The notes: a model not told the origin generated them from the letters alone. A stretch of DNA of 64,000 bases from an uncultured Candidatus Saccharibacteria bacterium (GCA_964596395.1 CAZQSY010000003.1:25678-89677), one strand, 5' to 3'; shown: positions 8,005 to 62,446, counted from the first letter of the stretch. Made by a program: numbers and translations.

Positions 8005-8078
8005 GCCGGTGTAGCTCAGGTGGTTAGAGCGCCACTTTTGTAAAGTGGATGTCGAGGGTTCGAATCCTTCCACCGGCT
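8005..8078 (+). tRNA. tRNA-Thr (anticodon TGT)
   Basis: GCCGGTG/CACCGGC acceptor stem, D-arm GCTC-AGGTGGTTA-GAGC, anticodon stem CCACT/AGTGG with loop TTTGTAA, T-arm GAGGG-TTCGAAT-CCTTC. Total 74 nt, and the 3' CCA is not encoded. Confidence 0.85.
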
Positions 8079-8081
8079 CAG

Positions 8082-9559: not shown

Positions 9560-9565
9560 GTAAAA

Positions 9566-11344: not shown

Positions 11345-11481
11345 GTACTCAAAGTTATCCACAGCCCCGCAGACAAAAATACGTTTACGCTGTTATATAA
11401 TGATATATGTTGAAGCTCGCAAGGGTGCTCATAATCAAAAGTCGCTACTTTACTAATTTATAATTTTTATGTTGCTTTTTT

Positions 11482-12657: not shown

Positions 12658-12723
12658 CCGAAAAAGAATAATTAGAACCGGCAGAAGCTCCCGAAGCTCG
12701 ACAATATCGAGAAAGAACACATT

Positions 12724-14250: not shown

Positions 14251-14259
14251 AATTTTTAA

Positions 14260-15159: not shown

Positions 15160-15163
15160 ACAC

Positions 15164-40964: not shown

Positions 40965-42758
40965 ATGGACAAAGAAAAATTGCAAGGCATAAGGCATTCG
41001 CTGGCGCATCTTCTGGCGGCCGCAGTATTGGAATTGCATCCGGACGCCAAGAACACCATCGGCCCGGCTATTGAAGACGGGTTTTATTACGATTTTGAAT
41101 TCTCTGCCCCTGTTTCCGACAAAGACCTCCCGAAGATAGAAAAGAAGATGAAGGAAATCCTGAAATCCTGGAAAGAATTTTTGAGCGAAGAGAAAAGCGA
41201 GGTAGAAGCAAAAGAATACTTCAAGAACAATATTTATAAACAAGAACTCATCGATGAGATAAAAACAAAAGGAGAAAAAATAACTTTCTACACCTGCGGA
41301 GGATTCACCGACCTGTGCCGGGGCGGGCATGCCGAAAATCCGAGCAAAGATATAGACCCCGACTCTTTCAAGCTCGACCGCGTGGCCGGGGCCTACTGGC
41401 GCGGGAATGAAAAAAATAAAATGCTAACGCGTATTTACGGTCTTGCTTTTGCGACAAAAGAAGAATTAGATGATTATATAAATCAACGGGAAGAAGCGAA
41501 AAAAAGAGACCATCGAAAGCTTGGTAAGGAATTAGACCTATTCCATGTTAACGACATAGTGGGATTAGGGCTTCCCTTATGGCATCCAAAGGGAGCACTT
41601 TTGTGGAGAATTGTTGAAGAATTTTGGTATAAAGAACATTTAAAGAATGGCTATGATTTGGTTAGATCTCCCCATATAGGAAATAAAATACTTTGGGAGA
41701 AGTCCGGTCACTGGGGTTTTTATAATAAATCTATGTATCCACCAATAGAAGTCGGTCAAACACTAGAAGAAAAACAACAAAATAAGAAAGTGGAAATTTC
41801 TGAAGAATATTTATTAAAACCAATGAATTGTCCTTTTCACATAGAAATTTTCAAAAATAATCCAAAATCTTATAGAGATCTTCCTCTACGTTTGGCTGAA
41901 TGTGGAACTGTTTATAGATTTGAAAAAAAGGGTGAATTATCTGGACTTACCAGAGTAAGAGGATTTACTCAAGACGATGCTCATATTATCTGCAGAAAAG
42001 AACAAGTTGAAGAAGAACTGAAAAAAGTAATAAATTTTATACTTTTTATTTATAAATCTTTCGGCTTTGATATAGAAACTGTAAAAGTTTTTCTTTCTTT
42101 ACGAGATCCAGAAAATAAGGAAAAATATGCAGGTAATGACAGTGGCTGGAATTTTACGGAAGAAGTATTGAGAAAAATTGCTATTGAAGAAAAATTAGAC
42201 TTCAAAGAAGAAAAGGGAGAGGCAGCTTTTTATGGACCTAAATTAGATTTCAAAATTAAAGATACATTAGGAAGATTATGGCAATGTTCTACGTTACAAT
42301 TTGATTTTAATTTACCGGAAAGATTCGACATAACTTTTACAAATCAAAAAGGAGAACAAGAAAGAGCTTATATGCTTCATCGTGCATTATTCGGTTCTTA
42401 TGAAAGATTCCTTGGTCTTCTGATAGAACATTATGCCGGGGCTTTTCCATTATGGTTATCACCTATACAGGTTAAAGTTATTCCCGTACGAGAAAATCAT
42501 AACGAATATGCTAAAAAGATTTTTGAATTATTGAAAGAAAATGGAATTCGCACCGAACTTGATGACAAAGAGGAAAATCTCGGTACCAAAGTTCGCGATG
42601 CCAAAAATAACAAGCTTCCTTACTGGATAGTTATTGGTGATAAAGAAATATCAGCTGAAAAGGTAAATCTAGAATCTCGCGACAAAGGTCAACTTGGTCA
42701 AATGTCAAAAGAAGAACTCCTCGCCAAATTTGTCGAAGAAATAAAAAACAAGAAGTAA
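40965..42758 (+). CDS. thrS: threonyl-tRNA synthetase (short form lacking the N-terminal TGS domain)
   Basis: It starts directly in the second additional domain (HSLAHLLAAAV). Class II motifs and the Zn ligands are present ('CPFHIEIF', 'HRALFGSYERFLGLLIEHYAGAFPLWLSP'). C-terminal anticodon-binding domain. Confidence 0.9.
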   Translation: MDKEKLQGIRHSLAHLLAAAVLELHPDAKNTIGPAIEDGFYYDFEFSAPVSDKDLPKIEKKMKEILKSWKEFLSEEKSEVEAKEYFKNNIYKQELIDEIKTKGEKITFYTCGGFTDLCRGGHAENPSKDIDPDSFKLDRVAGAYWRGNEKNKMLTRIYGLAFATKEELDDYINQREEAKKRDHRKLGKELDLFHVNDIVGLGLPLWHPKGALLWRIVEEFWYKEHLKNGYDLVRSPHIGNKILWEKSGHWGFYNKSMYPPIEVGQTLEEKQQNKKVEISEEYLLKPMNCPFHIEIFKNNPKSYRDLPLRLAECGTVYRFEKKGELSGLTRVRGFTQDDAHIICRKEQVEEELKKVINFILFIYKSFGFDIETVKVFLSLRDPENKEKYAGNDSGWNFTEEVLRKIAIEEKLDFKEEKGEAAFYGPKLDFKIKDTLGRLWQCSTLQFDFNLPERFDITFTNQKGEQERAYMLHRALFGSYERFLGLLIEHYAGAFPLWLSPIQVKVIPVRENHNEYAKKIFELLKENGIRTELDDKEENLGTKVRDAKNNKLPYWIVIGDKEISAEKVNLESRDKGQLGQMSKEELLAKFVEEIKNKK

Positions 42759-42759
42759 A

Positions 42760-44898
<2,139 letters not shown>

Positions 44899-45012
44899 TT
44901 AGTTAAAATAAATCAAAAAATAAAGGCAAAAATCACTTTCTGCTTGTACATAGTATAACAAAAACCAGCGCAAAAAACCAGCTTACCCCGTCGGTAGGCG
45001 GGGTCAAAATTT

Positions 45013-45235
45013 GAATAAAAAAATCCCCGAACGACACTGTGTGCCGTCCGGGGAGGACCGGACCTGGGGTGGCTATTTCTTATCGCCACCCCCAAGGTCT
45101 GGCCAATCCTTGGGTTCATCGAAGGGCCGCATAGGCCCTCCTTTCTTTTAGTTGCCGCTATCCGCGGTAGGACTCCCTTCTTGACTTTCAAAGGGAGAAA
45201 ATTGTGCTCAATAAATTGAATCCAATTTTCTCCCC
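45013..45235 (-). ncRNA. candidate structured RNA / regulatory leader upstream of gyrB with alternative antiterminator and terminator hairpins
   Basis: On the minus strand there is a series of perfect hairpins: GAGAAAATT/AATTTTCTC, GGGCC/GGCCC, CCCAAGG/CCTTGGG, GGTGGC/GCCACC. Then GTCCGG-TCCTCC-CCGGAC overlaps the terminator CCCCGGACGG...CGTTCGGGG plus U-run (45013-45052). No coding potential. Identity unknown. Confidence 0.3.
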
Positions 45236-45275
45236 TCAAAAAGAAAGATAAAGAACAAATTGAAAGAACTAAAAC

Positions 45276-45313
45276 AAAAACCAGCCCGTTTTCTAGAGGG
45301 CTGGTTTTTGTTT
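45276..45313. terminator. bidirectional intrinsic terminator (A5-CCAGCCC-gttttctaga-GGGCTGG-T5)
   Basis: Perfect 7-bp GC-rich stem flanked by an A-run and a T-run. On the minus strand it lies downstream of pheT. Confidence 0.55.
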
Positions 45314-45484
45314 TGTAAGTTTCTTTTTTGTGGAGATTATTTACAACGCAAGAATCAGACCTCTAGACCTTTTCGGCCAGACCTTAATAAAGAGGCGGTT
45401 ATTAATATATGCGTGTAAAACTTTATTCACAGTTTTTATGTATATCAAACTTGTTTACCCAAGTAAAGTGCCACCTGTGGATAA

Positions 45485-45553
45485 CCCGCACACTTACTTT
45501 TTTGATGCGCCCTGGGCGCATTGTAATCAATATCAAGAAAGTAAGTGTGCGGG
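45485..45553. repeat. 16-bp perfect inverted repeat (CCCGCACACTTACTTT...AAAGTAAGTGTGCGGG) enclosing an inner 8-bp palindrome (ATGCGCCC tg GGGCGCAT), 4 nt past the pheT stop
   Basis: Read directly from the sequence. It forms a long stem-loop in the pheT 3' UTR. Confidence 0.7.
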
Positions 45554-45557
45554 ATAA

Positions 45558-47450
45558 CTACCTCACCCGCCAGCCAGAGTTTTCCTCAAGCTTTGCTTTA
45601 ATTTTTTCCATCACGGCGTTGACTTCTTGGTCGGTAAGCGTGCGTTCGTACGATTGAAATACCAGCCGAAAGGCATAAGAGGTCTTATCCCCTTTTGTGA
45701 AAGAATCAAAAAGCGTCGGGCCTTTGATTACCATTTCTCCCGTATTTTCTTTGATAACTTTTTCTACTTTTGAAACTTCCACTCCTGACGGCACCCACAG
45801 CGCGATATCGCGAGCGATGAAAGGAAACAAAGACCAGGGCCTAAAAGCCGAACCCGTATGCTTTTCTGAATGGTCTGGTTGAGCCCGCTCTTCCAAAGAA
45901 TCTTGCGCGGGCGACCCGAGGACCTGAAGAAAAGCATCGGGTGAGGCGTCCTTACAAAATTCATCAAGCGTCATTTCTTTTATTCCCTTTTTATCGCCAT
46001 AAGCGACGCGTGCCTCTTCTTTGTCTTTCAAAAACACAGTTCCGATTTCAAAAATTTTAATTTCCTCCGCATCCAGAAGCGGAGCATTGAGCATGTTCAG
46101 CTTCAGACTCTCTTTCAGTCCGTCCGCCAAATTCGTCCGCAAATGTTTTTTGTCCGAGGCCGAAGCTAGCACTTCAACATCACCCTTATCTCTGAAAACA
46201 TAAGTCATCACTTCCGAGTACCCTTCTTCAAGCAGTTTGTTTCTTGCCCAACAAATCTTGGCGTAAGTATTATTTGCTTTCGGCTCGAATTCTATCTTCG
46301 GGATTTCTCCTTTTACCCTGTCGTACCCCAAAATCCTCCCAATTTCTTCTGCCATGTCTTCTTCAATCACCAAATCAAGCCGGAGAGGAGGGACGATAAT
46401 TTCAAACAAAACCCCCTCTGCCCCCTTATCAGGGGAAACTATTTTGTAAGGAAAATTATATCTCTTCAAGATTCCTTCGATCTCTTCCTTGGAAACTTCC
46501 AACCCCAGAATTTTTGAAATCTTTTCCGCGCTGAAAGTAAGTTTGTGTTCCGGCTGTTTCTTGGGATAAACATCCACGATATCCTCGAAAACCGCCCCGG
46601 GGCACATTTCGTAAATCAGAGCCGAGAGTTCTCGCATTCCATATTCGGCAAGCTCGGGAGACAAGTCGTTTTCGAAACGCTTGCGGGCGTCAGTAAAAAT
46701 GTTTTGCGTTTGCGCCGTCTTGCGCACCGATACCGGGTCAAAATTCGCTACTTCCAAAATTACATCCGAGGTACTTTCATCAACCTCGGCAATTTTTCCG
46801 CCTTTGATGCCGGCCAGCGCCAACACTCTTTCACCATCGGCAATCACCATGTTGGCGGGGCCGAGCTTTAATTCTTTGTTGTCTAGAGTTGTCATATCCT
46901 CCCCTTCCCGCGCCTGGCGCACTACCAATTTTTCTTTTACTTTTTTCAAATCAAAAACGTGCGTGGGCTGGCCGCAATTAAACATCACTAAATTCGCGGC
47001 ATCTACCATATTGTTTATGCTCCGCTGACCTATAGCTTCAAGATGCGCTTTTACCCAGTCGGGCGAAGGGCCGACTTTCACTCCCCTCACAATCCGCCCC
47101 ATGTACCGGCGGCATTTATCGCTCGCGATTTCTATCTTCAAGCCGGTCGGCCTGGATTCGGGCAATTTGTATTTCGGCGTCGGGTCGTTAAATTTTATAT
47201 CAAGCAGCGAAGCGAGCTCGCGCGCCACGCCCAAGTGAGAAAGCAAATCATGCGCCCGGTTCGGCAGAATGTTTATGTCAAAAATCACGTCGCCATCTTC
47301 TCTTTTTTCAACGCTTTCAACTTCGCACAAGTGATAAGTGAAAACATCCCGTAGTTTATCCACGTCGGGAACTCCCGCCTGTCCCCGATTATTCAGGAGG
47401 GCGGGCAGGTCCGGTATATACCATTTGAGCCAATTGTAGGAGATTTTCAT
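45558..47450 (-). CDS. pheT: phenylalanyl-tRNA synthetase beta subunit (short form)
   Basis: B3/4 and B5 domains plus the C-terminal class-II-like core. 630 aa. It follows pheS with a 3-nt gap. Confidence 0.9.
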   Translation of the reverse strand: MKISYNWLKWYIPDLPALLNNRGQAGVPDVDKLRDVFTYHLCEVESVEKREDGDVIFDINILPNRAHDLLSHLGVARELASLLDIKFNDPTPKYKLPESRPTGLKIEIASDKCRRYMGRIVRGVKVGPSPDWVKAHLEAIGQRSINNMVDAANLVMFNCGQPTHVFDLKKVKEKLVVRQAREGEDMTTLDNKELKLGPANMVIADGERVLALAGIKGGKIAEVDESTSDVILEVANFDPVSVRKTAQTQNIFTDARKRFENDLSPELAEYGMRELSALIYEMCPGAVFEDIVDVYPKKQPEHKLTFSAEKISKILGLEVSKEEIEGILKRYNFPYKIVSPDKGAEGVLFEIIVPPLRLDLVIEEDMAEEIGRILGYDRVKGEIPKIEFEPKANNTYAKICWARNKLLEEGYSEVMTYVFRDKGDVEVLASASDKKHLRTNLADGLKESLKLNMLNAPLLDAEEIKIFEIGTVFLKDKEEARVAYGDKKGIKEMTLDEFCKDASPDAFLQVLGSPAQDSLEERAQPDHSEKHTGSAFRPWSLFPFIARDIALWVPSGVEVSKVEKVIKENTGEMVIKGPTLFDSFTKGDKTSYAFRLVFQSYERTLTDQEVNAVMEKIKAKLEENSGWRVR

Positions 47451-47453
47451 AAA

Positions 47454-48170
47454 TTAAAATTGGTTCAACCGCAAATCGCCCTGGTAAAAAAGCCGTATGT
47501 CGGGAACGCCGAATTTTACTATGGTTAATCTATCTAAGCCGAAACCGAAAGCGAAACCCTGCCACTTGGCCGGGTCAAGACCGCAGTTCCTGATTACGTT
47601 CGGGTGAATCATGCCCGCGCCCAAGAGTTCCATCCACTTGCCGTTATGCTTCACATCAACTTCAAAACCGGGTTCCACGAACGGAAAGAAGCTGGGCCGA
47701 AGGCGTATTTCGGCGTCTTCGCCCAAAAATTTTTTGAAAAATTCGGTCAGAACCCATTTCATGTTCGCCACGCTCACGTCTTCGCCCACCATAAATCCTT
47801 CGAGCTGAAAGAACTGCATTTCATGGCCGGCATCGGTGGCCTCGTTGCGAAAAACTTTTCCCGGGACGACAACGGCAAACGGCGGATTCTTGCCTTCCTT
47901 CACGATTTTTTCCATGTAGCGAATCTGAACGTTCGAAGTGTGCGTGCGCAAGACATGTCCCGGTCTGTCTTTTATAAAAAAAGTGTCCTGCATATCGCGA
48001 GCCGGATGGTCCTTAGGGAAATTAAGCGCCTCAAAATTGTGCCAGTCGTCTTCAAGTTCTGGCCCGGTCGCCACCTCAAAACCAAGGCCGGAAAAAATTC
48101 CAACGGCCTCGTTGATTACCATCGAAATCGGATGCTCCCTACCGTGAAGTTCTTGATCTTTTTCGGTCAT
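47454..48170 (-). CDS. pheS: phenylalanyl-tRNA synthetase alpha subunit, N-terminally reduced (238 aa)
   Basis: 'GLGFEVATGPELEDDWHNFEALNFPKDHPARDMQDTFFI' is motif 1. 'FRNEATDAGHEMQFFQLEG' is motif 2. 'GFAFGFGLDRLTIV' is motif 3. It lacks the ~90-aa N-terminal coiled coil of canonical PheS. Confidence 0.85.
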   Translation of the reverse strand: MTEKDQELHGREHPISMVINEAVGIFSGLGFEVATGPELEDDWHNFEALNFPKDHPARDMQDTFFIKDRPGHVLRTHTSNVQIRYMEKIVKEGKNPPFAVVVPGKVFRNEATDAGHEMQFFQLEGFMVGEDVSVANMKWVLTEFFKKFLGEDAEIRLRPSFFPFVEPGFEVDVKHNGKWMELLGAGMIHPNVIRNCGLDPAKWQGFAFGFGLDRLTIVKFGVPDIRLFYQGDLRLNQF

Positions 48171-48616: not shown

Positions 48617-49093
48617 TCATTTATATCCTTTTGCCAGCTTAAAGGTCTTCACGCTATCCTTCAGTTTTATCTTTTCCAAATAATCCAGAAACTCTTGCGG
48701 TAGAGGCGAAGGTCCGACCCAGACACTTTTTTGTATCATTGTGTATTTAAATTTTTTCAGGTGCCAACGCAACCATTCCCTCTCAGCTTTCTTAGCTTCA
48801 GGCACATCAAACATAAGCATGAGGTTTTTGGGCGCGTTTTTCTCAAACATAAAATCAAATTGTCGTAAGGAATCAATTTTCCTCCTAATGTAATCTCTGC
48901 CCCTTCTGGTCACACACAAACCTTCGTCACTCTCTCCCACTAATCCATCTTTGACTAGATTTGACATGGTGGCACGCAAAGAATTGGATGGGTACTTCCT
49001 AAATTTTGGCAAACCAAGGAAGTTCACGCGCATTCCCTTATAGTTAAGAGAATCCCTGCTAAGTTCCTTCAAAATATCCAGAATGATTGTCAT
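48617..49093 (-). CDS. PaaX-like winged-helix transcriptional regulator (short)
   Basis: N-terminal wHTH-like 'LRATMSNLVKDGLV'. C-terminal 'LMLMFDVPEAKKAEREWLRWHLKKFKYTMIQKSVWVGPSP' resembles the PaaX C-terminal pattern (W.G.W.lv.ydvPe..r..LR..L...G...L..SVW..P). Confidence 0.4.
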   Translation of the reverse strand: MTIILDILKELSRDSLNYKGMRVNFLGLPKFRKYPSNSLRATMSNLVKDGLVGESDEGLCVTRRGRDYIRRKIDSLRQFDFMFEKNAPKNLMLMFDVPEAKKAEREWLRWHLKKFKYTMIQKSVWVGPSPLPQEFLDYLEKIKLKDSVKTFKLAKGYK

Positions 49094-49191
49094 GTTTTTA
49101 TAGTATATTAAATTGTTAGAAATTCTGCTATAGCAGAAAATATAACAATATAGACGACGTGGTCGAGTGAATGAAAGTTATAAAAAAAGAA

Positions 49192-50010
49192 CTAAGCGAT
49201 AAGTTCTCTGATAATATCGGCTTTGTGCACAACGTCGTTATACCCTATACGCATAGTTTTTATTATATGTTCCCTAGTATTGTCTAAGGTACCCGAAAAT
49301 AACCTTACACCGGGCTTTATAATTAAAATATTTTTATCTTTATAGTTATGTCTCGTCTCCCGAGTATAAGACCACACTTTTTCCCTGACGTATTTTCCCA
49401 AAAACAAGGAAAAAAATCGCAGAAGATTTTTAGAGAAGAAATCATGATGTGAATTATCAAAAGCAATAATTACTTCGGCTCCCTCCTGTTTTGCCTTCTT
49501 GATATTCACATCCAAGGGAGCCTCAATGGCGCCGTCTATATAAAGGTTTCTTTTTATTCTCACTAATTTGTTGTAAACAACGGGAGCGGCGTTTGAGGCC
49601 CGCAATGCTTCAAATATATCTACGTCATCCTTGTTGCTCACGTACTCTATCTTCTTATTATTAACGTTCGTCACGGAAACAAAAAACTTTATTTTTGACT
49701 CTTTAACCGACCGAGTATCAAGGGGGTCCTGTTTCTTGAAAATTTCGTCTATCAGATAATCAATATCCATAATTTCTCCCAACCTCCAGAATGAAACAAA
49801 TTTTTTCGAAGGGAGAAGATTCTGCCAAATATTTTTTATTGAACCGTATTGCCTGGCGACGTAATACGCGAGCGTACCGGTACTGCCGGAACTGCCTACG
49901 ACCATGTACGGGTCGGTGAAATTCAATTTTTCCACGAGCGCTAAAATAGCACCGGTAAAATAGGCGCAGGACATACCTCCTTCCGAACCGATAATGGCAA
50001 CTTTCTTCAT
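49192..50010 (-). CDS. patatin-like phospholipase
   Basis: Oxyanion 'VAIIGSEGGMSCAYFTG' (GxGxxG). Nucleophile elbow 'GSSGS' (GxSxG). Catalytic Asp region 'YIDGAI'. The likely start is MKKVAII at 50010, whose ATG overlaps the helicase TGA stop in an ATGA arrangement. The track start is 50043. Confidence 0.8.
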   Translation of the reverse strand: MKKVAIIGSEGGMSCAYFTGAILALVEKLNFTDPYMVVGSSGSTGTLAYYVARQYGSIKNIWQNLLPSKKFVSFWRLGEIMDIDYLIDEIFKKQDPLDTRSVKESKIKFFVSVTNVNNKKIEYVSNKDDVDIFEALRASNAAPVVYNKLVRIKRNLYIDGAIEAPLDVNIKKAKQEGAEVIIAFDNSHHDFFSKNLLRFFSLFLGKYVREKVWSYTRETRHNYKDKNILIIKPGVRLFSGTLDNTREHIIKTMRIGYNDVVHKADIIRELIA

Positions 50011-53000
50011 GCGGTTTTGTAGATTCTCTTCATCATCTCGCAATATTCACAGGAATTTGTCACCTGTCTGCCGGCAGGCAGGAAAGATTTATAATCGCAA
50101 GGCCTGTCGAGCCATTTGCCCGTCTTGACTAAGGTTTCATAATCTTTTATGTCCTGCAGAAGCAGGTCAAACCGGTCTCGCCCGATGGTGGTGCTGTAAA
50201 CGCTTTCTTTCCCGTCTTTGGCTTCCAAAAATTCCAGACGGGATTCATTCACACTCACTCGGCCTTTCGAGCTACGCTCTAGAAGAAAAGAATACATCGC
50301 GAGCTGGCGCATGTAATCGCTCATGCGGCCTCTCGCCCCGTCTGTAAAGGCGGGGTCTTCATTTATTTTCTCAATATCCGACTTTTTGCGCACACTGCCC
50401 GTCTTGAAATCGGTCACCCGCACATCCCTCTCGCCTAATTTCTCGACCAAATCTATCTTTCCGTAAATACTCAAGCGGGGAAACTCCGCGGCTCGCACGG
50501 ACACGCTTTTCTCGGTTTCCCTGTCGGGGTTTATCTCGGCGAATCTTTCTTTCACCCACCTCGAAATTATTCTAAGCAAACCCTTCTCGCCTTGCGCGAT
50601 TTCCTCCAAATCTTTTCCAGAAGGCGGTTTTCTGAATTTTAGAATCTTTTCCATAGCCGCGTGCACTCTGGACCCGAATTCAAGGGTCTCATTTTTCGGC
50701 TCGGGCAGTTTGAGCAGATTGCGGAAATACCATTTTCTGGGACATTCAAAAAAATTATTCAGGAGCGAGACCGAAACATTCACCTCGGCGTATTCTTTCG
50801 AAACCATCTCTAGAAGTTTAGGGATTGTATCTTGGACGTCGTTTTTCTCGCCAGAGGCGACATAATTTTTCGGGTCGTCCGATAAAATTTTCTCTTCAGT
50901 TTCGCTGAAGGTTAATTTTTCAAAAACACTGTCTGCTTGCCCCGCGTTGGCGGCGGCAAGCTCTGATACGATTTTGGCCAACTCCTGCTCCCGACCCGAA
51001 TAAGAGAACCTGGGGTAAGAAAGTCGGCAAAATCTCTTGGCTCTGGTGATGGCCACGTAGAGTTCTCTCTTGGCCGCCGCTTCGTCTTTTTCTTCCACCT
51101 TCAGGGCAACTGATTCGGGCAATCTGAAATTCCGCCGCCGGCCTTTCATGAGCGAACCTTCGTCTAAGTGGGCAACCCAGACAAAATCAAATTCCAAACC
51201 CTTCGAAGCGTGCAGGGTTATGACTTTTACTCCTTCGTCGCTTTTAAACGAGGCGAGCGGAAAATCCTCTCCGTATTCGCGCAACCTTTCAATGAAAGCG
51301 ATAAATCCCGGGAGAGAATTCTTTTCCTGGCGGTTTTCCTTTTCCGCAAACGAAAGAGCGAGATGCAAGACGCTGCGGACTACTTCTATTCTCTCCAAAA
51401 GTTCCGTGTGGCCCTTGGCGGTCTTCAACAAAACCTCGTCGCCGACTTTTTGCACAAATTCCTGCATATCTAGCGAAGACGAAAAAGAAACCAACCGGAG
51501 CAATTTTTCTCCCCATTCTTTTATCTCCCGGGTTCCGCTCGAACCGAACAAGTCCTCTCTTTGGCCGGCCATATCCTGCAAGCTTACTGTCTTGCCTCTT
51601 TCTTGGTACAGATACGAGTGCGCGGCGAGACGGGGTATCCCCGATACCGGGTCTAAGATGCTTTCGGCGAGCGGTACGGGGTCGTGAATATTCGCGCAAA
51701 TTTTGAAAACTCGAAGCAAAGCAGAAAATTCCGCCGTTGCAAAAAGCGACAGGCCCCGCGCCCCGGCCACTTTTATGCCCAAACCTCCGAGAACCCGCAT
51801 GGCCTCGCGGGCCTGCGTATTCTTCGGCACCAAGATGGCGCAATCGCTTTCTTTCACTTCCTTGCTCAGCAGTTTTTCTTTGAGCTCAATTCCGCAAGCG
51901 ATAACCTCGTCGCGCGGATAGTCGCATTCAAAAAGCTTCAGGTTGTGATTTTCTTTGAGGGTAGCGACCAATTTTTCCTCTGAGAAAGAACTCGACAGAA
52001 GCTTATCGGCGGCAGCGAGTATTTTTTGAGTGGAGCGATAATTCTGGGTCAGAAATATAACTTTTGCTTTGCCGAAAATGTCTTTGAATTCTTCAAAATA
52101 AGAGAACTTCGCCCCGCCGAAAGCGTAGATGAGCTGACGGTCGTCGCCGACGGCAAAAATGTTGGGCTTTTCTACTTTCTGCCAAATCGTTTTCAGCAGA
52201 GCGTTTTGCGCGCCACTCGAATCCTGATGTTCGTCAACCAAAACATACAAATATCTTACCTGTATTTCGGCCCGGGCATTTTCGGATTCTTCTAAAATTT
52301 GGAGCGCGTATTTTATCTGGTCGTCATAATCCAAGAGCCCCTTTTCTTGCTTAAGCTTTTCGTACATATCGTAGAAGGACACGATTTCTTTGGTGCGCTC
52401 CAGACCTTCTATCTTTTCCAAATATTCTTTTTTCATTTTTCCTTTCGTTTCTCCCCGGCTCGAAATGCTCTCGGGGTCGTTTTGTATCGCCTGGATTTCT
52501 TTTTCAATTTCATCCAGAAAATCCCGTGGCGACAATCTTTCGCGCTTCAAAAGCGAGACAAGCGAGCGCAGTTCTTTGAAATGCCTGCCGATGTCGCCCC
52601 TGGGACGGAGGTACTGCCATTCGTTCTGGCGCAAAATCTGGTCGCATAAAGATACGGCCTCGGTATCCTCTAAAATTCGCGGAGCAAAAGGCAGAGAAAG
52701 AACGTGAAAAAATTCATCAATGATTTTCCCGCAAAAACTGTGAAAAGTAAGCACTTCTACCCGCCCGCCTTCTTCGCCTATATACTTCTGTAATCGCTCG
52801 CGCATGGCGCGAACGGCCGAATTGGTGAAAGTAAGACATAAGATAGAATCTGCGCCGACATCCGTTTTTTTTAAAATATTGCCTATGCGCAAGGCCAAAA
52901 TCTGGGTCTTGCCCGTACCTGGCCCGGCCACCACCATGACCGGACCGTCTATCGTGTCTACCGCCTCTTTTTGAGCGGGATTTAATTTGCGATATTCGTC

Positions 53001-53060
53001 GTCAAATAATCCGGGAGCCATCGTGCCCCTATTATACCCCGCCTTTTGTTTCAGCGACAT
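50007..53060 (-). CDS. UvrD/PcrA-like SF1 helicase fused to a C-terminal PD-(D/E)xK (RecB/Cas4/AddB-type) nuclease with 4 Cys (Fe-S cluster-type)
   Basis: Helicase motif I 'VVAGPGTGKTQIL', 'CLTFTNSAVRAMRERL', motif II 'VLVDEHQDSSG', plus later helicase motifs. C-terminal 'CPRKWYF', then 'IYGKIDLVEKL' and 'VTDFKTGS' (DYKTG-like), then 'RPCDYKSFLPAGRQVTNSCEYC'. A REP-1 copy encodes LPAGRQV between the Cys residues. Confidence 0.8.
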   Translation of the reverse strand: MSLKQKAGYNRGTMAPGLFDDEYRKLNPAQKEAVDTIDGPVMVVAGPGTGKTQILALRIGNILKKTDVGADSILCLTFTNSAVRAMRERLQKYIGEEGGRVEVLTFHSFCGKIIDEFFHVLSLPFAPRILEDTEAVSLCDQILRQNEWQYLRPRGDIGRHFKELRSLVSLLKRERLSPRDFLDEIEKEIQAIQNDPESISSRGETKGKMKKEYLEKIEGLERTKEIVSFYDMYEKLKQEKGLLDYDDQIKYALQILEESENARAEIQVRYLYVLVDEHQDSSGAQNALLKTIWQKVEKPNIFAVGDDRQLIYAFGGAKFSYFEEFKDIFGKAKVIFLTQNYRSTQKILAAADKLLSSSFSEEKLVATLKENHNLKLFECDYPRDEVIACGIELKEKLLSKEVKESDCAILVPKNTQAREAMRVLGGLGIKVAGARGLSLFATAEFSALLRVFKICANIHDPVPLAESILDPVSGIPRLAAHSYLYQERGKTVSLQDMAGQREDLFGSSGTREIKEWGEKLLRLVSFSSSLDMQEFVQKVGDEVLLKTAKGHTELLERIEVVRSVLHLALSFAEKENRQEKNSLPGFIAFIERLREYGEDFPLASFKSDEGVKVITLHASKGLEFDFVWVAHLDEGSLMKGRRRNFRLPESVALKVEEKDEAAAKRELYVAITRAKRFCRLSYPRFSYSGREQELAKIVSELAAANAGQADSVFEKLTFSETEEKILSDDPKNYVASGEKNDVQDTIPKLLEMVSKEYAEVNVSVSLLNNFFECPRKWYFRNLLKLPEPKNETLEFGSRVHAAMEKILKFRKPPSGKDLEEIAQGEKGLLRIISRWVKERFAEINPDRETEKSVSVRAAEFPRLSIYGKIDLVEKLGERDVRVTDFKTGSVRKKSDIEKINEDPAFTDGARGRMSDYMRQLAMYSFLLERSSKGRVSVNESRLEFLEAKDGKESVYSTTIGRDRFDLLLQDIKDYETLVKTGKWLDRPCDYKSFLPAGRQVTNSCEYCEMMKRIYKTA
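50064..50083. repeat. REP-1 palindrome copy 4 (CCTGTCTGCCGGCAGGCAGG, 1 substitution), in-frame in the helicase-nuclease C-terminus
   Basis: It encodes LPAGRQ on the minus strand within the Cys-cluster linker. Confidence 0.75.
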
Positions 53061-53063
53061 TTC

Positions 53064-53462
53064 TTATTCCGAGGTGTTGCCGTCAAACTCTTCGGCGTCT
53101 TTTTCCGCTTCCGCCTTGGTCGCATGCACCGTGCCGTCTTTGTGGTGGGCCGGCGAATAGACTGTGTAAAACTTCAAGTCCTCGGTGTCGGAAGTGTTGA
53201 TGATGTTGTGCTCGGCTCCCGCCGGCACAATTATCGCCGAACCGTCCCGCAATTCGTAAAAATTCCCGCTCAGCGCGCACCTGCCCTCGCCTTTCTCGAA
53301 ACGGAAAAACTGGTCGTTCCCAGGATGCGTCTCCATCCCGATTTCTTCGTGGGGTTTAAGGCACATCAAGACAAGCTGGCTGTGTTTAGAGGTGTACAGC
53401 ACCTTGCGGAAATTTTTGTTCTCCAGAGTTTCTTTTTCTATATTCGTGTTAAAACCTTTCAT
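53064..53462 (-). CDS. cupin-domain protein
   Basis: 'GMETHPGNDQFFRFEKGEG' and 'GSAIIVPAGAEHNI' are the two cupin metal-site motifs (G(X)5HXH...E / ...H). There is a 3-nt gap to the helicase-nuclease gene. Confidence 0.65.
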   Translation of the reverse strand: MKGFNTNIEKETLENKNFRKVLYTSKHSQLVLMCLKPHEEIGMETHPGNDQFFRFEKGEGRCALSGNFYELRDGSAIIVPAGAEHNIINTSDTEDLKFYTVYSPAHHKDGTVHATKAEAEKDAEEFDGNTSE

Positions 53463-53539
53463 GGTCTTCTTTTTTAAAAATTAGATTATCGACCTTTTCC
53501 AAAACCTATTTAATTGTATCATGTATGCAGAGATGTCAA

Positions 53540-53591
53540 CCCCGTCGCTCGCCCTGTCATTCGCGAATGACGGGGCTCGCGAGCGACGGGG
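53540..53591. repeat. 52-bp nested palindrome: outer 13-bp arms CCCCGTCGCTCGC/GCGAGCGACGGGG enclosing a 26-bp near-perfect palindrome GCCCTGTCATTCG|CGAATGACGGGGC
   Basis: Read directly from the sequence, intergenic between the 53724 gene and the cupin gene. It shares its 13-mer with the hairpin at 31067. Confidence 0.8.
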
Positions 53592-53723
53592 TCAAGAGCG
53601 CGGCAGAAAACGCTATTTGCTTTTTGTTTGTCGTTCATTTTAACTTTCCTCAAAATATTCCATAGCCCGTGAAGCTCGTGATGCTCCGCGAGCTACCGCG
53701 CTTGTTCTTGCGCGCCATCGGCA

Positions 53724-56650: not shown

Positions 56651-58837
<2,187 letters not shown>

Positions 58838-61800
58838 TTACGGCAGACCTACCTCCGCGCCAACCGTATAGAAAGTAGACGGAGAACTTTGATTGTTGTA
58901 AGAAGTTTTGAGCCAATCAGCCGAACGTCCGACATTAGAAATGCGCACTTCATCAAGCTTTCCGGTATACGGTTCACCGGTGCCATTGGTCGCGCCGTTG
59001 TAAGTACTCATATAGATTGTATTTGGGGTTCCTGTAAGCGGAGCAGTAGTTGAAGTACACGATGAAGTACACTGTACTCCATCTATGTAAAGTTTGTTGT
59101 TGCTTCCGACACGGGTAAAGGCGATATGATGCCACACAGAATTTGAAGGAACGGCAGTTGAACCGATAATATTTGTGCCGGCAGATTGTTTTATTCTGAG
59201 TCTTCCCGAAGAGTCAAGAACAACCTGGGTAGCGTTACCGCTCGAAGAAACCTTAACTGTGAATATAGATTCCTGGTTTCCACTCGCTGATGGTTTGTTT
59301 AACCAAAATTCCATGGTCTGATCTGTGTTCAAAGCAGGCAAACTTGTAGCTGAGGTTTTTGATATATTTGCGCTACCGGGGAAATTTGCTCCGCCGTCAA
59401 ACTGGCCGGTAGTAGCCGTAACACTGCCATTAATTGTACCGTTATTCAAGCTAGAAGTTGAGTCAAGCGCGCCTAGTGTTACACCGTCGGGCAAGTGCCA
59501 CACGCCTTTGTAATTCGCATCCCACACCGCTGTTTTGCTCGACTGGTCGGTTGTAATACTTGCATCCCCGTAACCCATATAGAAAACTGTGTCTGCCGTA
59601 GCCGAGACCATCGGCACTTTCACCCAATACGCCACCTCGCCGGTTGCGGCCACGTACTTTTCCGTCTCCCAGGCAAGCTTCGTTGTTAAATTAGCATCGG
59701 AGTAGAAACCTATGTCGTAACCGTTCGCATTTTTTACTTTTCCGGTTGGCGGAATGTTGGAAAGATAAGGATAAGTCCCCGAGACCAGCACCGGAAAGTT
59801 CGTCTGGTTTGAACCTTGCACCTGCAGATAACTGATAGTAATTGCCCGCGCGTATCTGGAAGCAGGCGGAGCTGTGTTGAAAGTAGCCGTTACACTTTTA
59901 TCTGAAGTCATAGACAAAACGCACGAGCCCGTGCCGGTGCAAGCGCCCGACCAACCGACAAAACTTGAGTTTGCGCCCGCCAAAGCGGTGAGGGTGACGC
60001 TTGTGCCGTCGGTGAAGCTCGCAAAACAGGTAGGACTGCACGAAATTCCCGAAGGGCTTGAAGAAACTGTACCCGAGCCGGTACCGGCCAGAGAAACAGT
60101 TAGTGAACGAGAAACCGGCGGAGGAGCGGCCCCGGGCTTGAGCGGAACGGCTACCATGGCCCACCTTTCAGGGGGGGTAATGCTTGGATTCGCAGTCCAA
60201 GACATTGAAGTAGAGGTGGAACCCGGCTTGTCTGACCCTGCGATGAGCACATTGTTGTCGCCTGTGTTGGAAATCTTGTTATACCGCTCTGTTTGCCCTA
60301 CGGCTTTGGTCAGGGTCTGAGTAGCAGAGGCGCTTGTCTTTACTCCTACTACATCAACTACCAATTCCCCGCTCTGACTGGTTACGCTAATAGAAGGATT
60401 TGTTCCCGCTCTGCCGTCAACAACTGCCGTTCCTAGAGGTGTCGTTTGATTAACGCCGGAATAAGAAACAACACCCGCTGCCGCCCTGGTACTGACAGAA
60501 AAAGGAATATATACATTATTAAGCCCGGAAGGCGGGCTCAACATGTACCACAGTTCAGTGTAAATTCGCGCTCCGGAAACCGCGTCTTTGTGTTTTGCTA
60601 TAAGAGTCATCGGTTGTCCCGCGTAAGTCATTCCGGTTCCAGACACTTGGGGAGCATTAGTGCTCCACATACTGACCCCAACTACAAGAATTCTATTTGA
60701 GCCGGCACCGACGGTGTGAGGGATAGTAAGACTTCCCGCTGCGGTTCCTCCCGTGGTACCGTCTGACGACGCATCAAAAGCAATCTGCGCCGAAAGGTTG
60801 AAAGTTGCCATCACGGCCTGGTCGGAAGTCATAGAAAGAACGCACGAACCCGTACCAGTACAGGCGCCCGACCATCCAGCAAAGCTTGAATTGGCATCGG
60901 GTGTGGCGGTGAGGGTAACACTCGCGCCGTCTGAGAAACCCGCGCTGCAAATAGAACCACAGGAAATTCCCGACGGGCTAGAGGTAACCGTGCCGATTCC
61001 TCCGCCAGCCGGGGTTACGGTCAAAACGCGGCTTCCGGGCGGAGGTGTCGGACTTCCTGACATAATTTCCACCGTTCTCGCTTTCCATCCGCTTATGAAA
61101 GGGTCCATCGAAACGTCGGCACTTCCCCAAGAAGAAACCCCTTCGCCGGTGTCGTGTCCGGCTGCGCTTCCTGCCGCAGAAGCGTAAGTCCTGTTTATCA
61201 TACCCAAGGGGGGATTGTATACCGGCGCGCTTCCTCCGCGGTGGCCGGCGAAGCTGGCCACCCAGGAAGAACCGCTGGTATTGTTGAGGGACAGCGCCGG
61301 GTAAGTGATTATTGAACCGTATCCCCAAGAACTCGCGTTCGCGCCTATGGGGGTCGTAGAGCTGTTCCCGCGATAAATGTGCACCAGCGTTTCGGTGGCA
61401 TTTGTAGAAGTTACACTTCCTATACTACCGTCAGAGTCGATTATGTAAGCGAGACGGCTGGAATTGGTATCAGAACCCTCGGAAGTGCCGATTTCTGTCC
61501 AACCGGCAGGGGTCTGCGGCTTGACCGTACTGGCTCCGTCGCGATAAGCAAAAAGAATCAAGAGGTCGCCGGCTTGATGCACGGGCACCAATACCGTATC
61601 TCCCCCGGCATCGTTAGCCGCCACGAAAGTTACATTGCTGTTTGAAGTACTGCCGAAGTTTGCTCCCACACTCATGTTACCGGCTAAGGTAAGATTGCAA
61701 GCGCCGGTGCCGGTGCACGCGCCGGACCAGCCGTTAAAGACAGAACTCGCGTCCGGAGAAGCCGACAGAGTTACCATGTCTCCTTCGGTGAAATTGAACG

Positions 61801-62446
61801 TACAAGAAGCGCCGCAATCAATGCCGGCCGGAGACGAGGTCACGGTCCCGCCGCCAGTTCCACCCTTGCTCACTGTAAGCACCGATTCACCCGGTAGAGG
61901 AGGGTCGCCGACCCCCGTACCGCCGACAGAAACCTGAAGCTCGCGCTCGACATTTCCAGAAACCACGGAACCGCACGAGCCGTTTTCTTTATTGTATCCC
62001 TTAGAGTTTATGAAAACCTCCGGAGGAGTTGATTTATCCACCGTTACTCTGGCACATCCGTCACCGCCATTTCCCAAACCAGAAATTATGAAAGACCAAA
62101 AGGGATAACCCCCCGACAGGCCCATCGTATCCCCCAAGCAGGTTACCGTGCCCGTGCCGCCGGTCTGCACAAAAGAATTTTTCCCGGCCTTGTCGTTAAG
62201 CAAAGCGCATTCAACGCCGACATCGGCGGCAAAAAAAGCGTCGTTGGTTTCCACCCCCGAGGTGCCGAACTTTACTTCTTTGACGGCAATATTCATCACC
62301 CCCATGGTGATGGCCAAGAGCATTGAAGAAAGCACAATGGCGTAAAGTAAAACAAAACCGGTATCGCGCGTATTTTCTTTTTTTGTTTTCAGAAAGTTTA
62401 ACATTGTTTTATACCGAATCATTCCGCGGCGTTTTATTCCGTCCAA
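58838..62446 (-). CDS. giant (1202 aa) surface protein: pilin-like hydrophobic N-terminus, three InlB-B-repeat-like Cys-containing domains, DUF2341-like and LamG (concanavalin-like lectin) C-terminal domains
   Basis: N-terminus '...TRDTGFVLLYAIVLSSMLLAITMGV' resembles a minor-pilin (GspK-like, no Glu5) segment. Three repeats of '...F.GWSGACTGTGSCVLSMTSD..V.ATF'. C-terminal 'GKLDEVRISNVGRSADWLKTSYNNQ' is typical of the LamG_3 end. The start overlaps the upstream pilin gene by 13 nt. Confidence 0.65.
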   Translation of the reverse strand: MDGIKRRGMIRYKTMLNFLKTKKENTRDTGFVLLYAIVLSSMLLAITMGVMNIAVKEVKFGTSGVETNDAFFAADVGVECALLNDKAGKNSFVQTGGTGTVTCLGDTMGLSGGYPFWSFIISGLGNGGDGCARVTVDKSTPPEVFINSKGYNKENGSCGSVVSGNVERELQVSVGGTGVGDPPLPGESVLTVSKGGTGGGTVTSSPAGIDCGASCTFNFTEGDMVTLSASPDASSVFNGWSGACTGTGACNLTLAGNMSVGANFGSTSNSNVTFVAANDAGGDTVLVPVHQAGDLLILFAYRDGASTVKPQTPAGWTEIGTSEGSDTNSSRLAYIIDSDGSIGSVTSTNATETLVHIYRGNSSTTPIGANASSWGYGSIITYPALSLNNTSGSSWVASFAGHRGGSAPVYNPPLGMINRTYASAAGSAAGHDTGEGVSSWGSADVSMDPFISGWKARTVEIMSGSPTPPPGSRVLTVTPAGGGIGTVTSSPSGISCGSICSAGFSDGASVTLTATPDANSSFAGWSGACTGTGSCVLSMTSDQAVMATFNLSAQIAFDASSDGTTGGTAAGSLTIPHTVGAGSNRILVVGVSMWSTNAPQVSGTGMTYAGQPMTLIAKHKDAVSGARIYTELWYMLSPPSGLNNVYIPFSVSTRAAAGVVSYSGVNQTTPLGTAVVDGRAGTNPSISVTSQSGELVVDVVGVKTSASATQTLTKAVGQTERYNKISNTGDNNVLIAGSDKPGSTSTSMSWTANPSITPPERWAMVAVPLKPGAAPPPVSRSLTVSLAGTGSGTVSSSPSGISCSPTCFASFTDGTSVTLTALAGANSSFVGWSGACTGTGSCVLSMTSDKSVTATFNTAPPASRYARAITISYLQVQGSNQTNFPVLVSGTYPYLSNIPPTGKVKNANGYDIGFYSDANLTTKLAWETEKYVAATGEVAYWVKVPMVSATADTVFYMGYGDASITTDQSSKTAVWDANYKGVWHLPDGVTLGALDSTSSLNNGTINGSVTATTGQFDGGANFPGSANISKTSATSLPALNTDQTMEFWLNKPSASGNQESIFTVKVSSSGNATQVVLDSSGRLRIKQSAGTNIIGSTAVPSNSVWHHIAFTRVGSNNKLYIDGVQCTSSCTSTTAPLTGTPNTIYMSTYNGATNGTGEPYTGKLDEVRISNVGRSADWLKTSYNNQSSPSTFYTVGAEVGLP

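What the first reader, a model, noticed from the sequence alone, without database searches (positions are those of the whole stretch)
49192..53462. Tightly coupled operon: cupin, then UvrD-helicase/Fe-S PD-(D/E)xK nuclease, then patatin phospholipase (candidate defence or repair module)
Three minus-strand genes sit with a 3-nt gap (cupin to helicase) and an ATGA stop/start overlap (helicase to patatin), followed by a PaaX-like regulator. A single-polypeptide SF1 helicase with a Cas4/AddB-type Fe-S nuclease and no AddB/RecC partner is unusual. Patatin-like phospholipases are recurrent effectors in anti-phage systems such as CBASS CapV. Helicase-nuclease fusions are recurrent sensor/effector modules (Nhi-like, Gabija GajB-like). 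I am not aware of a described system combining exactly these three components. It could alternatively be a streamlined AddA-like end-resection enzyme with unrelated neighbours.
Basis: inference. Interest (0 to 1): 0.55.

Follow-up and report, generated by a model that had tools for sequence, protein, structure and literature searches.

The report
Core helicase-nuclease with unrelated passenger genes
The genes are real and tightly packed, but the big helicase-nuclease is a housekeeping DNA-repair gene found across this group of tiny bacteria (Paceibacteria), and the cupin and patatin genes beside it are occasional neighbours, so the locus is ordinary rather than a new defence system.

Summary
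On the minus strand a Cupin_2 gene sits 3 nt before a 1017-aa UvrD/PcrA-type helicase. That helicase carries a C-terminal four-cysteine PD-(D/E)xK nuclease. Its stop overlaps (ATGA) the start of a patatin gene. A short PaaX_M/Cas2-like gene follows after 98 nt.

The three-gene module reading is not supported.
- The helicase-nuclease is conserved full-length (46-66% identity) in hundreds of Patescibacteria/Paceibacteria species.
- It sits in a housekeeping backbone: ligA ... helicase ... pheS-pheT-gyrB-thrS.
- Among 80 species representatives, patatin directly follows it in only 2 (4 distinct genomes in all, counting the window and one extra locus). These genomes do not form a clade on the helicase tree.
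- Cupin is adjacent in 6 of 80.
- Other helicase neighbours (TerC, TruB, rhodanese, pheS) sit just as tightly, with gaps of -14 to +2 nt.
- The patatin family is rare. Elsewhere it lies next to GAPDH/aaRS, FtsH/SmpB, Xre or NUDIX genes.
- No defence-system partner (GajA, CD-NTase) is present.

UvrD-Cas4-like fusions were already described in 2017. The best reading is a lineage-core PcrA-like repair helicase-nuclease with unrelated passengers. Interest is low.

The parts
50007..53060 (-). Helicase-nuclease gene (1017 aa; alternative start M14 at 53021). PcrA/UvrD-family SF1A helicase fused to a C-terminal Cas4/AddB-like four-Cys PD-(D/E)xK nuclease. Core gene of the lineage.
   Evidence: Pfam. 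NCBIfam best hits PcrA > Rep > UvrD > AddA > RecB, all below equivalog cut-offs. PDB best hit PcrA 1pjr, 2.5e-52. More than 7600 homologues, and the top 120 are all 971-1027 aa with PF12705. Invariant motifs.
51018..52985 (-). Helicase motor region (aa 26-681): UvrD-helicase + UvrD_C domains, Walker A GPGTGKT, motif II DEHQD.
50034..50777 (-). Nuclease domain (aa 762-1009): PDDEXK_1 with C773/C988/C1004/C1007, D870, D884-x-K886, Q919xxxY923.
   Evidence: AlphaFold model pLDDT 81. Foldseek PDB hits to AdnA, ACE1 (Cas4 family), RecE, RecB, Cas4, AddB, Dna2, Exo5 and MGME1 at E 2e-7 to 1e-3.
53064..53462 (-). Cupin_2 protein (132 aa), 3 nt upstream of the annotated helicase start. Function unknown. 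Part of the local backbone in one clade only.
   Evidence: 72-83% identical copies lie within 10 kb upstream in 15 of 80 loci and are directly adjacent in 6. All members of the window's clade (L001-L005) have it. PHROG 13536, unknown function.
49192..50010 (-). Patatin-like acyl hydrolase (272 aa). Its ATG overlaps the helicase stop (ATGA). Ser41 (GSSGS) and Asp159 (DGA) catalytic dyad. Accessory gene with lower GC.
   Evidence: S41 and D159 invariant in 35 homologues. GC 0.392 against 0.484 for the helicase. Only 64 clusters in the protein database. No PADLOC hit.
49179..49209 (-). Weak terminator-like hairpin (8 bp, -7.1 kcal/mol) plus a U7 run, overlapping the patatin stop. Probable end of the cupin-helicase-patatin transcript (inference).
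   Evidence: (z = -1.76 only), sequence.
48617..49093 (-). 158-aa winged-helix + PaaX_M/Cas2-like domain protein. A separate accessory gene that recurs in the helicase-pheS gap.
   Evidence: Present in the gap in 8 loci including the window, scattered on the helicase tree. Promoter-like site 49166-49139.
53513..53539 (-). Promoter-like TTGACA-15 nt-(TGa)TACAAT upstream of the cupin gene, preceded by a GC-rich hairpin (about 53545-53587). Candidate start of the cupin-helicase-patatin transcription unit (inference).
   Evidence: Sequence read. Hairpin folded.
56798..58828 (-). NAD-dependent DNA ligase LigA. Upstream anchor of the conserved backbone.
   Evidence: Found upstream of the helicase in 25 of 80 loci and in L081/L082.
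42760..48170 (-). pheS (47454-48170), pheT (45558-47450) and gyrB (42760-44898). Downstream anchors of the conserved backbone.
   Evidence: pheS in 60 of 80 loci, pheT in 45, gyrB in 42.

Best explanation
The 1017-aa protein is the Paceibacteria-wide (Patescibacteria/CPR) PcrA/UvrD-type SF1A DNA helicase, permanently fused to a C-terminal Cas4/AddB-like nuclease that has the four-cysteine signature of an Fe-S cluster. It is a housekeeping genome-maintenance gene. It lies in a conserved backbone: ligA ... helicase ... pheS-pheT-gyrB-thrS.

Proposed mechanism:
- Inferred from intact motifs and from the RecB/AddA/AdnB domain order: ATP-driven 3'-to-5' translocation and unwinding by the N-terminal motor.
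- Inferred: the strand leaving the motor passes to the C-terminal nuclease.
- Inferred: one chain therefore processes DNA ends, gaps or stalled forks in genomes with little other repair machinery.

The cupin and patatin genes are lineage-restricted passengers. They share the compact transcription unit but have no obligatory functional link to the helicase.

The patatin has an intact Ser-Asp dyad and no signal peptide. It is most likely a cytoplasmic lipid acyl hydrolase used for lipid remodelling or scavenging, in organisms that cannot make their own lipids (inference).

The PaaX_M/Cas2-like gene is a separately transcribed small accessory gene.
For: Core status of the helicase-nuclease:
- More than 7600 homologues. 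The best 120 are all full-length with the nuclease domain, at 51-66% identity, and are named Paceibacterota, Nomurabacteria or Parcubacteria.
- At least 578 stretches encoding a relative in species-representative genomes.
- 20-sequence alignment with 67% mean column identity and every catalytic motif invariant.

Backbone synteny:
- pheS 60 of 80, pheT 45 of 80, gyrB 42 of 80, ligA 25 of 80.
- The same gene order in L081 and L082.
- The rest of the window is core genes: rpoBC, dnaG, rpoD, SMC, RNase III, NusB, MreBC, TGT.

Neighbours vary:
- Immediately upstream: TerC/DUF475 (22 loci), TruB (7), cupin (6), Mur ligase (5) and others.
- Immediately downstream: rhodanese (13), pheS (13), patatin (4 including the window), PaaX-like (4).
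- The helicase-pheS gap ranges from 49 nt to 4 kb. It also holds proline-biosynthesis genes and a reverse transcriptase.
- Unrelated neighbours show the same -14 to +2 nt spacing, so tight coupling is the norm in these genomes.

The patatin family has other contexts:
- Only 1 of 80 metagenome patatin loci has the helicase upstream.
- Other contexts are GAPDH-patatin-aaRS-SerRS (10 loci), FtsH/SmpB/cyclopropane-fatty-acid synthase (12), Xre HTH (5), and NUDIX plus a lipocalin-like protein.

The motor is PcrA-like. The nuclease fold is RecB/Cas4-like.

No defence partners were found. PADLOC gives only generic GajB/UvrD hits for the helicase and nothing for patatin or cupin.

Patescibacteria lack lipid synthesis (PMC11665869).
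Against: - In four divergent genomes (window, L005, L009/L081, L082; helicases 46-64% identical) the patatin ATG always lies within 4 nt of the helicase stop. The patatin and helicase similarities are roughly congruent. This is an old and stable adjacency, so a functional link in that sub-lineage cannot be excluded.
- I could not check whole genomes. Whether this is the only UvrD/PcrA paralogue, and whether AddAB/RecBCD/RecJ are absent, is untested.
- No biochemical data exist for this family. Fe-S binding, polarity and nuclease specificity are all inferred.
- The helicase scores far below the PcrA equivalog cut-off (273.7 against 911.2 bits), so orthology to PcrA rests on best-hit ranking and on proximity to ligA.
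Confidence: 0.8

Rival explanations
1. In a sub-lineage, the helicase-nuclease and the translationally coupled patatin (with or without the cupin) form a functional pair. One example would be an abortive-infection module in which the helicase-nuclease senses foreign DNA ends and the patatin degrades the membrane.
For: - The patatin start lies within 4 nt of the helicase stop in all four genomes that have the pair, despite 46-64% helicase identity.
- Patatin and helicase-nuclease domains are recurrent in defence systems. The helicase gives GajB-type PADLOC hits.
- UvrD-Cas4 fusions have been linked to restriction-modification contexts (PMC5704561).
- The patatin has lower GC than the helicase, as expected for an acquired accessory gene.
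Against: - The pair occurs in 2 of 80 species representatives, and the genomes that have it are not a clade.
- The closest relatives L001-L004 lack patatin.
- Patatins of the same family at 61-72% identity sit in unrelated housekeeping contexts.
- The patatin has no PADLOC CapV-type hit, and there is no cyclase, GajA or other sensor nearby.
- The flanks are ligA, tRNA-Ser, pheST and gyrB, which is not a defence island.
- Equally tight spacing is seen with TerC and TruB.
Confidence: 0.06
2. The helicase-nuclease is one subunit of an AddAB/AdnAB-like two-subunit end-resection machine. Its partner would be encoded elsewhere in the genome.
For: - The domain order (SF1A motor + C-terminal RecB-family nuclease) is that of AddA, AddB, AdnA, AdnB and RecB.
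- Foldseek hits AdnA and AddB nuclease domains.
- The four-Cys signature is typical of AddB.
Against: - No second UvrD/PDDEXK gene lies within 10 kb in any of 80 loci, or anywhere in 1.9 Mb of sampled Patescibacteria DNA. Known AddAB, AdnAB and RecBCD subunit genes are adjacent (established knowledge).
- AddA, AddB and RecB equivalog models score far below their cut-offs: 160 against 708, 23 against 904, and 127 against 696 bits.
- The motor is closest to PcrA, UvrD and Rep.
Confidence: 0.1
3. The helicase-nuclease is itself a defence-type UvrD-Cas4 or Gabija-like (GajB) protein rather than a housekeeping enzyme.
For: PADLOC GajB models hit at up to 2.6e-67. The UvrD-Cas4 fusions described in PMC5704561 were proposed to be components of defence systems.
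Against: - The GajB hits cover only the generic UvrD core, and no GajA (OLD-family) neighbour is present.
- Near-universal full-length conservation and fixed synteny with ligA, pheST and gyrB are the opposite of the patchy distribution typical of defence genes.
- No restriction-modification, Dcm or Vsr genes are nearby.
Confidence: 0.04

Closest known systems
UvrD-Cas4-like helicase-nuclease fusions (largest branch of pfam12705; Hudaiberdiev et al. 2017, PMC5704561)
   Same: Same architecture: an N-terminal UvrD-like SF1 3'-5' helicase and a C-terminal PF12705 Cas4-like nuclease with four cysteines. Often stand-alone in non-conserved contexts.
   Different: The described clade is associated with Type III restriction-modification or Dcm/Vsr genes, occurs in genomes that also have RecB, and was interpreted as defence-ancillary. 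Here the gene is lineage-core and syntenic with ligA, pheST and gyrB. Monophyly with that clade was not tested.
PcrA / UvrD / Rep (SF1A helicases; the pcrA-ligA operon of Firmicutes is from established knowledge)
   Same: Best sequence matches to the motor are PcrA 1pjr at 2.5e-52 and TIGR01073 at 273.7 bits. All helicase motifs are intact. Recurrent proximity to ligA.
   Different: About 300 extra C-terminal residues form a nuclease in place of the PcrA/UvrD C-terminal tail. The score is well below the PcrA equivalog cut-off. ligA lies upstream with variable genes in between, rather than immediately downstream.
AddAB / AdnAB / RecBCD end-resection helicase-nucleases
   Same: A motor plus C-terminal RecB-family nuclease in one chain. 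AddB-type four-Cys signature. Structural similarity of the nuclease domain to AdnA, AddB and RecB.
   Different: No adjacent partner subunit. All equivalog models fail. In AddB the four-Cys nuclease sits on an inactive motor, whereas here the motor motifs are intact.
Gabija GajB
   Same: A UvrD-like core (PADLOC 2.6e-67; PDB GajB 1e-13).
   Different: No GajA partner. GajB has no nuclease domain. The gene here is not sporadic.
CBASS CapV and other patatin defence effectors
   Same: Patatin fold with a Ser-Asp dyad.
   Different: No PADLOC hit for this patatin. No CD-NTase or other signalling gene. A 272-aa single-domain protein found mostly beside housekeeping or lipid-related genes.
Dna2 / bacterial Bad (Fe-S nuclease-helicase single chains)
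   Same: A single polypeptide combining an Fe-S PD-(D/E)xK nuclease with an SF1 helicase (PMC7430649, listed; weak Pfam Dna2 hit; Foldseek hit 5eax).
   Different: Opposite domain order (nuclease N-terminal) and an SF1B 5'-3' motor in Dna2/Bad (established knowledge).

Membership tests
UvrD-Cas4-like fusion (pfam12705 branch) | UvrD-like SF1 helicase N-terminal to a PF12705 nuclease in one polypeptide | tested here: met
   PF00580 4e-57, PF13361 1e-31, PF12705 3e-23, all above gathering scores.
UvrD-Cas4-like fusion (pfam12705 branch) | Four conserved cysteines plus the RecB nuclease motifs | tested here: met
   C773, C988, C1004, C1007, D870, D884, K886, Q919 and Y923 are invariant in 20-28 homologues.
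UvrD-Cas4-like fusion (pfam12705 branch) | Membership of the single monophyletic helicase clade reported in 2017 | not tested
PcrA (TIGR01073 equivalog) | Score above the curated equivalog cut-off | tested here: not met
   273.7 bits against a cut-off of 911.2. It is nevertheless the best-scoring NCBIfam model.
PcrA/UvrD functional orthologue | Sole or primary SF1A UvrD-family helicase of the genome | not testable with these tools
   Only 64 kb of this genome and 10-kb flanks of the others were available. No second paralogue was seen in 1.9 Mb of sampled loci.
AddAB | AddA or AddB equivalog score, and an adjacent partner subunit gene | tested here: not met
   TIGR02785 160.3 bits against 707.65; TIGR02773 23.2 against 903.7. 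No second helicase-nuclease gene within 10 kb in 80 loci.
RecBCD | RecB equivalog score, and adjacent recC/recD | tested here: not met
   TIGR00609 127.4 bits against 696.05. Neighbours are cupin, patatin and pheS.
Gabija | GajB (UvrD-like) encoded next to GajA (OLD-family ATPase-TOPRIM nuclease) | tested here: not met
   GajB models hit the helicase core. No neighbour hits GajA in PADLOC or Pfam.
CBASS (CapV patatin effector) | Patatin effector matching CapV models, encoded next to a CD-NTase cyclase | tested here: not met
   The patatin has no PADLOC family at E<=0.01. No cyclase is present in the window neighbourhood.
Patatin-like phospholipase (PF01734) | Pfam domain above the gathering score, GxSx[G/S] nucleophile Ser and DG[A/G] Asp | tested here: met
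   49.6 bits against 27.7. S41 and D159 are invariant, and G11-G12 (oxyanion region) nearly invariant. The usual Arg/Lys after GGG is absent.
PaaX transcriptional regulator (TIGR02277) | Full three-domain PaaX architecture and equivalog score | tested here: not met
   22.9 bits against 264.55. Only the N-terminal and PaaX_M (Cas2-like) regions are present in 158 aa.
Nhi-like nuclease-helicase immunity | N-terminal nuclease followed by an SF1 helicase (recalled from memory), in a sporadic defence-island distribution | tested here: not met
   The domain order is reversed and the gene is lineage-core. No Nhi model appears among the best 25 PADLOC hits; the lower-ranked hits were not displayed.

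The most novel reading that the evidence does not exclude
In one Paceibacteria sub-lineage the core helicase-nuclease has been paired with a translationally coupled patatin hydrolase. The pair would act as a DNA-sensing and membrane-attacking module, for example an abortive-infection pair. This would explain why the patatin start stays within 4 nt of the helicase stop in four genomes whose helicases have diverged to about 50% identity.

A less exotic but more likely novelty has roughly 0.3 probability. In it, this single chain combines PcrA's role with DNA-end resection in genomes that lack AddAB/RecBCD.
Probability: 0.05. Interest if true: 0.55.

Novelty: new member of a known kind. Interest (0 to 1): 0.15.

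Why it matters
The main value is a clean negative. Tight spacing, stop/start overlap and defence-flavoured domains (UvrD helicase-nuclease, patatin, Cas2-like) are not evidence of a defence system in compact Patescibacteria genomes, because unrelated housekeeping genes are packed just as tightly there.

A modest positive point remains. Paceibacteria appear to carry, as a near-universal core gene, a PcrA-like helicase permanently fused to a Cas4/AddB-type nuclease with a four-cysteine signature. If this is their only UvrD-family enzyme and they lack AddAB/RecBCD, it would be a minimal one-chain solution for end processing in reduced genomes, and a tractable target for biochemistry.

Tried and rejected
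- Exact-sequence contig look-up of the window's helicase and cluster-member look-up gave no record or name. The organism is therefore assigned only through its relatives (Paceibacterota/Nomurabacteria).
- A PDB sequence search with the nuclease domain alone found nothing meaningful (one search was a frame error). The fold search was needed instead.
- Rfam found only two tRNAs. There is no leader or riboswitch in the 446-nt pheS upstream spacer.
- The promoter/terminator scan gave only weak consensus matches.
- PHROGs gave only an unknown-function hit for the cupin.
- Literature searches for DNA-repair gene content or patatins in Patescibacteria found nothing specific.
- I considered and rejected Gabija, CBASS/CapV, AddAB, RecBCD, Nhi and PaaX membership (see the membership tests).
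- GC content as evidence that patatin was recently acquired is only suggestive. The core gene thrS is an even stronger GC outlier.


Full report
**Observation**

- Cupin, 53064-53462.
- Helicase-nuclease, 50007-53060.
- Patatin, 49192-50010. It starts at the ATG at 50010, as in its homologues.
- A 158-aa PaaX_M/Cas2-like gene, 48617-49093.

Pfam supports every domain call: Cupin_2 4.5e-16, UvrD-helicase 4e-57, UvrD_C 1e-31, PDDEXK_1 3e-23, Patatin 7e-13, PaaX_M 4e-14.

The 3-nt cupin/helicase gap and the ATGA helicase/patatin overlap can be read directly from the sequence. Homologues of the helicase begin about 13 residues later. The real start may therefore be the ATG at 53021, which gives a 42-nt gap.

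The PaaX-like gene lies 98 nt further on, after an AT-rich spacer (25.5% GC). The spacer contains a weak hairpin plus U-run and a promoter-like site. This gene probably has its own transcript.

A TTGACA-15-TGaTACAAT element lies upstream of the cupin gene. It is a plausible promoter for a cupin-helicase-patatin unit. The transcript structure is inference.

**What the helicase-nuclease is**

The motor is closest to PcrA, then Rep and UvrD, and only then AddA and RecB.
- NCBIfam: PcrA 273.7 bits, Rep 231.5, UvrD about 205, AddA 160, RecB 127. All are below the equivalog cut-offs.
- PDB: PcrA 1pjr 2.5e-52, UvrD1, Rep, UvrD, then AddA 1e-26, AdnB 2e-15, GajB 1e-13.

A 20-sequence alignment has 67% mean column identity. 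Invariant residues include Walker A (GPGTGKT), motif II (DEHQD), the nuclease residues D870, D884-x-K886 and Q919xxxY923, and four cysteines (C773, C988, C1004, C1007).

An AlphaFold model of the last 317 residues (pLDDT 81) matches RecB/Cas4-family nucleases at E 2e-7 to 1e-3. These include AdnA, the Argonaute-associated Cas4-family protein ACE1, RecE, RecB, Cas4, AddB, Dna2, Exo5 and MGME1.

This architecture is not new. Hudaiberdiev et al. 2017 describe UvrD-Cas4-like fusions as the largest branch of pfam12705 (PMC5704561).

**Distribution and synteny**

The protein has more than 7600 homologues. The best 120 are all 971-1027 aa, all carry PF12705, are 51-66% identical, and are named Paceibacterota, Nomurabacteria or Parcubacteria where a name exists.

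It returned 578 stretches that encode a relative.

I ran tblastn with the window's proteins against the 80 best loci, using 10-kb flanks (gene identities).

| Gene, relative to the helicase | Loci of 80 |
|---|---|
| pheS downstream | 60 |
| pheT downstream | 45 |
| gyrB downstream | 42 |
| ligA upstream | 25 |
| Cupin within 10 kb | 15 |
| PaaX-like within 10 kb | 9 |
| Patatin directly downstream | 2 |

Pre-called genes on L081 and L082 show the same order: ligA ... helicase - patatin - (rhodanese) - PheRS - gyrB - ThrRS - L32.

The rest of the window is also core: rpoB/rpoC, dnaG, rpoD, SMC, RNase III, NusB, MreB/MreC, TGT, RNase R. This is not a defence island.

**Neighbours are variable and always tight**

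I clustered the ORFs immediately flanking the helicase.
- Upstream: TerC/DUF475 (22 loci), TruB (7), cupin (6 plus the window), Mur ligase (5), metallophosphatase (5), ABC transporter (3).
- Downstream: rhodanese/UPF0176 (13), pheS (13), patatin (4 including the window and L082), PaaX-like (4).

Gaps to TerC and TruB are -14 to +2 nt. Overlaps and 2-3 nt gaps are therefore the norm in these genomes and say nothing about function.

The helicase-pheS spacer ranges from 49 nt to about 4 kb. It holds assorted genes, including proline-biosynthesis genes and a reverse transcriptase.

**The patatin**

The family is small, with 64 clusters. Ser41 (in GSSGS) and Asp159 (in DGA) are invariant, so it is probably an active acyl hydrolase. 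It has no signal peptide.

Of 80 metagenome patatin loci, only one has the helicase upstream. That locus is L084, from the same species as L005.

Other recurrent contexts:
- GAPDH - patatin - class-II aaRS - SerRS (10 loci).
- Divergent FtsH, with SmpB or cyclopropane-fatty-acid synthase downstream (12 loci).
- An Xre-type HTH gene upstream (5 loci).
- Single cases next to NUDIX plus a lipocalin-like protein, a methyltransferase, RNase Y, a nucleotidyltransferase, or a recombinase-bearing element.

This holds even for patatins that are 61-72% identical to the window's copy.

PADLOC has no match for the patatin or the cupin.

Patescibacteria cannot make lipids and are thought to take lysolipids from neighbouring bacteria (PMC11665869). 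A lipid-remodelling role is the most economical guess. This is inference.

**The residual signal**

Four distinct genomes carry helicase-patatin: the window, L005 (= L084), L009 (= L081) and L082.
- The patatin ATG lies 2-3 nt after the helicase stop, or overlaps it.
- The helicases are 46-64% identical and the patatins 62-77%.
- On a rough NJ tree of the helicases these genomes do not form a clade. The window's nearest relatives L001-L004 lack patatin.

The simplest account is an old adjacency that was lost repeatedly, or that spread by recombination between the conserved flanks. A functional link in this sub-lineage cannot be excluded. I put it at about 5%.

**Partner subunit**

No second UvrD/PDDEXK gene lies within 10 kb of the helicase in any locus, or anywhere in the 1.9 Mb of fetched Patescibacteria DNA. 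This argues against an AddAB/AdnAB-type adjacent partner. Whole-genome content could not be examined.

**Verdict**

The sequence observation is confirmed.

What is there is a lineage-core PcrA-like helicase fused to a four-cysteine Cas4/AddB-type nuclease, with unrelated and sporadic neighbours. It is an uncharacterised member of an already described architecture.

Interest is low (0.15). The one question worth asking is whether this single chain replaces both PcrA and AddAB/RecBCD in these reduced genomes.

Noticed in passing
L081 8088-9218 (-), L082 6849-7979 (-), L006 4961-5278 (-); also L009-L013, L020, L027, L032, L044-L046, L075, L078-L080: In about 16 of 80 Paceibacteria loci, the canonical pheS-pheT pair beside the helicase is replaced by one gene of about 376 aa. 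It combines the class-II PheRS core (PF01409) with an FDX-ACB anticodon-binding domain (PF03147). This is the architecture of mitochondrial-type monomeric PheRS. No full pheT is present in these loci. A quick literature search found no report of this for Patescibacteria.
   Followed up: partly
window 8453-17173 (+), next to tRNA-Thr 8005-8079: Seven consecutive plus-strand ORFs (172-682 aa), the six scanned having no Pfam hit, start right after a tRNA-Thr gene. AT skew also turns positive in this region. This could be an integrated element or a lineage-specific surface or unknown-function cluster.
   Followed up: no
window 19720-20394 (+): An IS200-like Y1 transposase (PF01797, 2e-8) sits between a glycosyltransferase gene and rpoD.
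   Followed up: no
window 40965-42758 (+): The ThrRS gene has GC 0.363 (GC3 0.30) against 0.475 for the window and 0.52 for the adjacent gyrB. That is a strong compositional outlier for a core gene and may reflect horizontal replacement.
   Followed up: no
window 53513-53625 (-): A long GC-rich inverted repeat (CCCCGTCGCTCGC...GCGAGCGACGGGG) lies in the 261-nt spacer upstream of the cupin gene. It is immediately followed by TTGACA-15-TGaTACAAT. It could be a terminator for the upstream membrane-protein gene plus the cupin promoter, or a repeat element.
   Followed up: partly
window 48617-49093 (-); L005, L013, L016, L033, L043, L061, L066: A 158-164-aa winged-helix + PaaX_M/Cas2-like protein (61-71% identical) recurs in the helicase-pheS spacer. 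It is found in 8 genomes scattered across the helicase tree, independently of patatin. Its function is unknown. It gives weak Cas2 hits, and no CRISPR array was noted.
   Followed up: partly
window 47454-48170 (-) and 45558-47450 (-): PheS is only 238 aa and PheT only 630 aa, both markedly shorter than typical bacterial versions.
   Followed up: no
window 58838-62446 (-), 62434-63478 (-): A 1202-aa protein with Laminin_G_3 and InlB B-repeat-like domains is followed by small ORFs, one with an N-terminal methylation (type IV pilin-like) motif. This is probably a cell-surface or pilus-associated cluster.
   Followed up: no
L018 13282-14349 (+): A reverse transcriptase (RVT_1, 1e-24) lies in the helicase-pheS spacer of one genome. 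It could be a group II intron or a retron-like element.
   Followed up: no
L059 8317-8775 (+): A distant patatin-like ORF fragment (30% identical) lies upstream of TerC and the helicase in one genome. This is probably coincidental.
   Followed up: no
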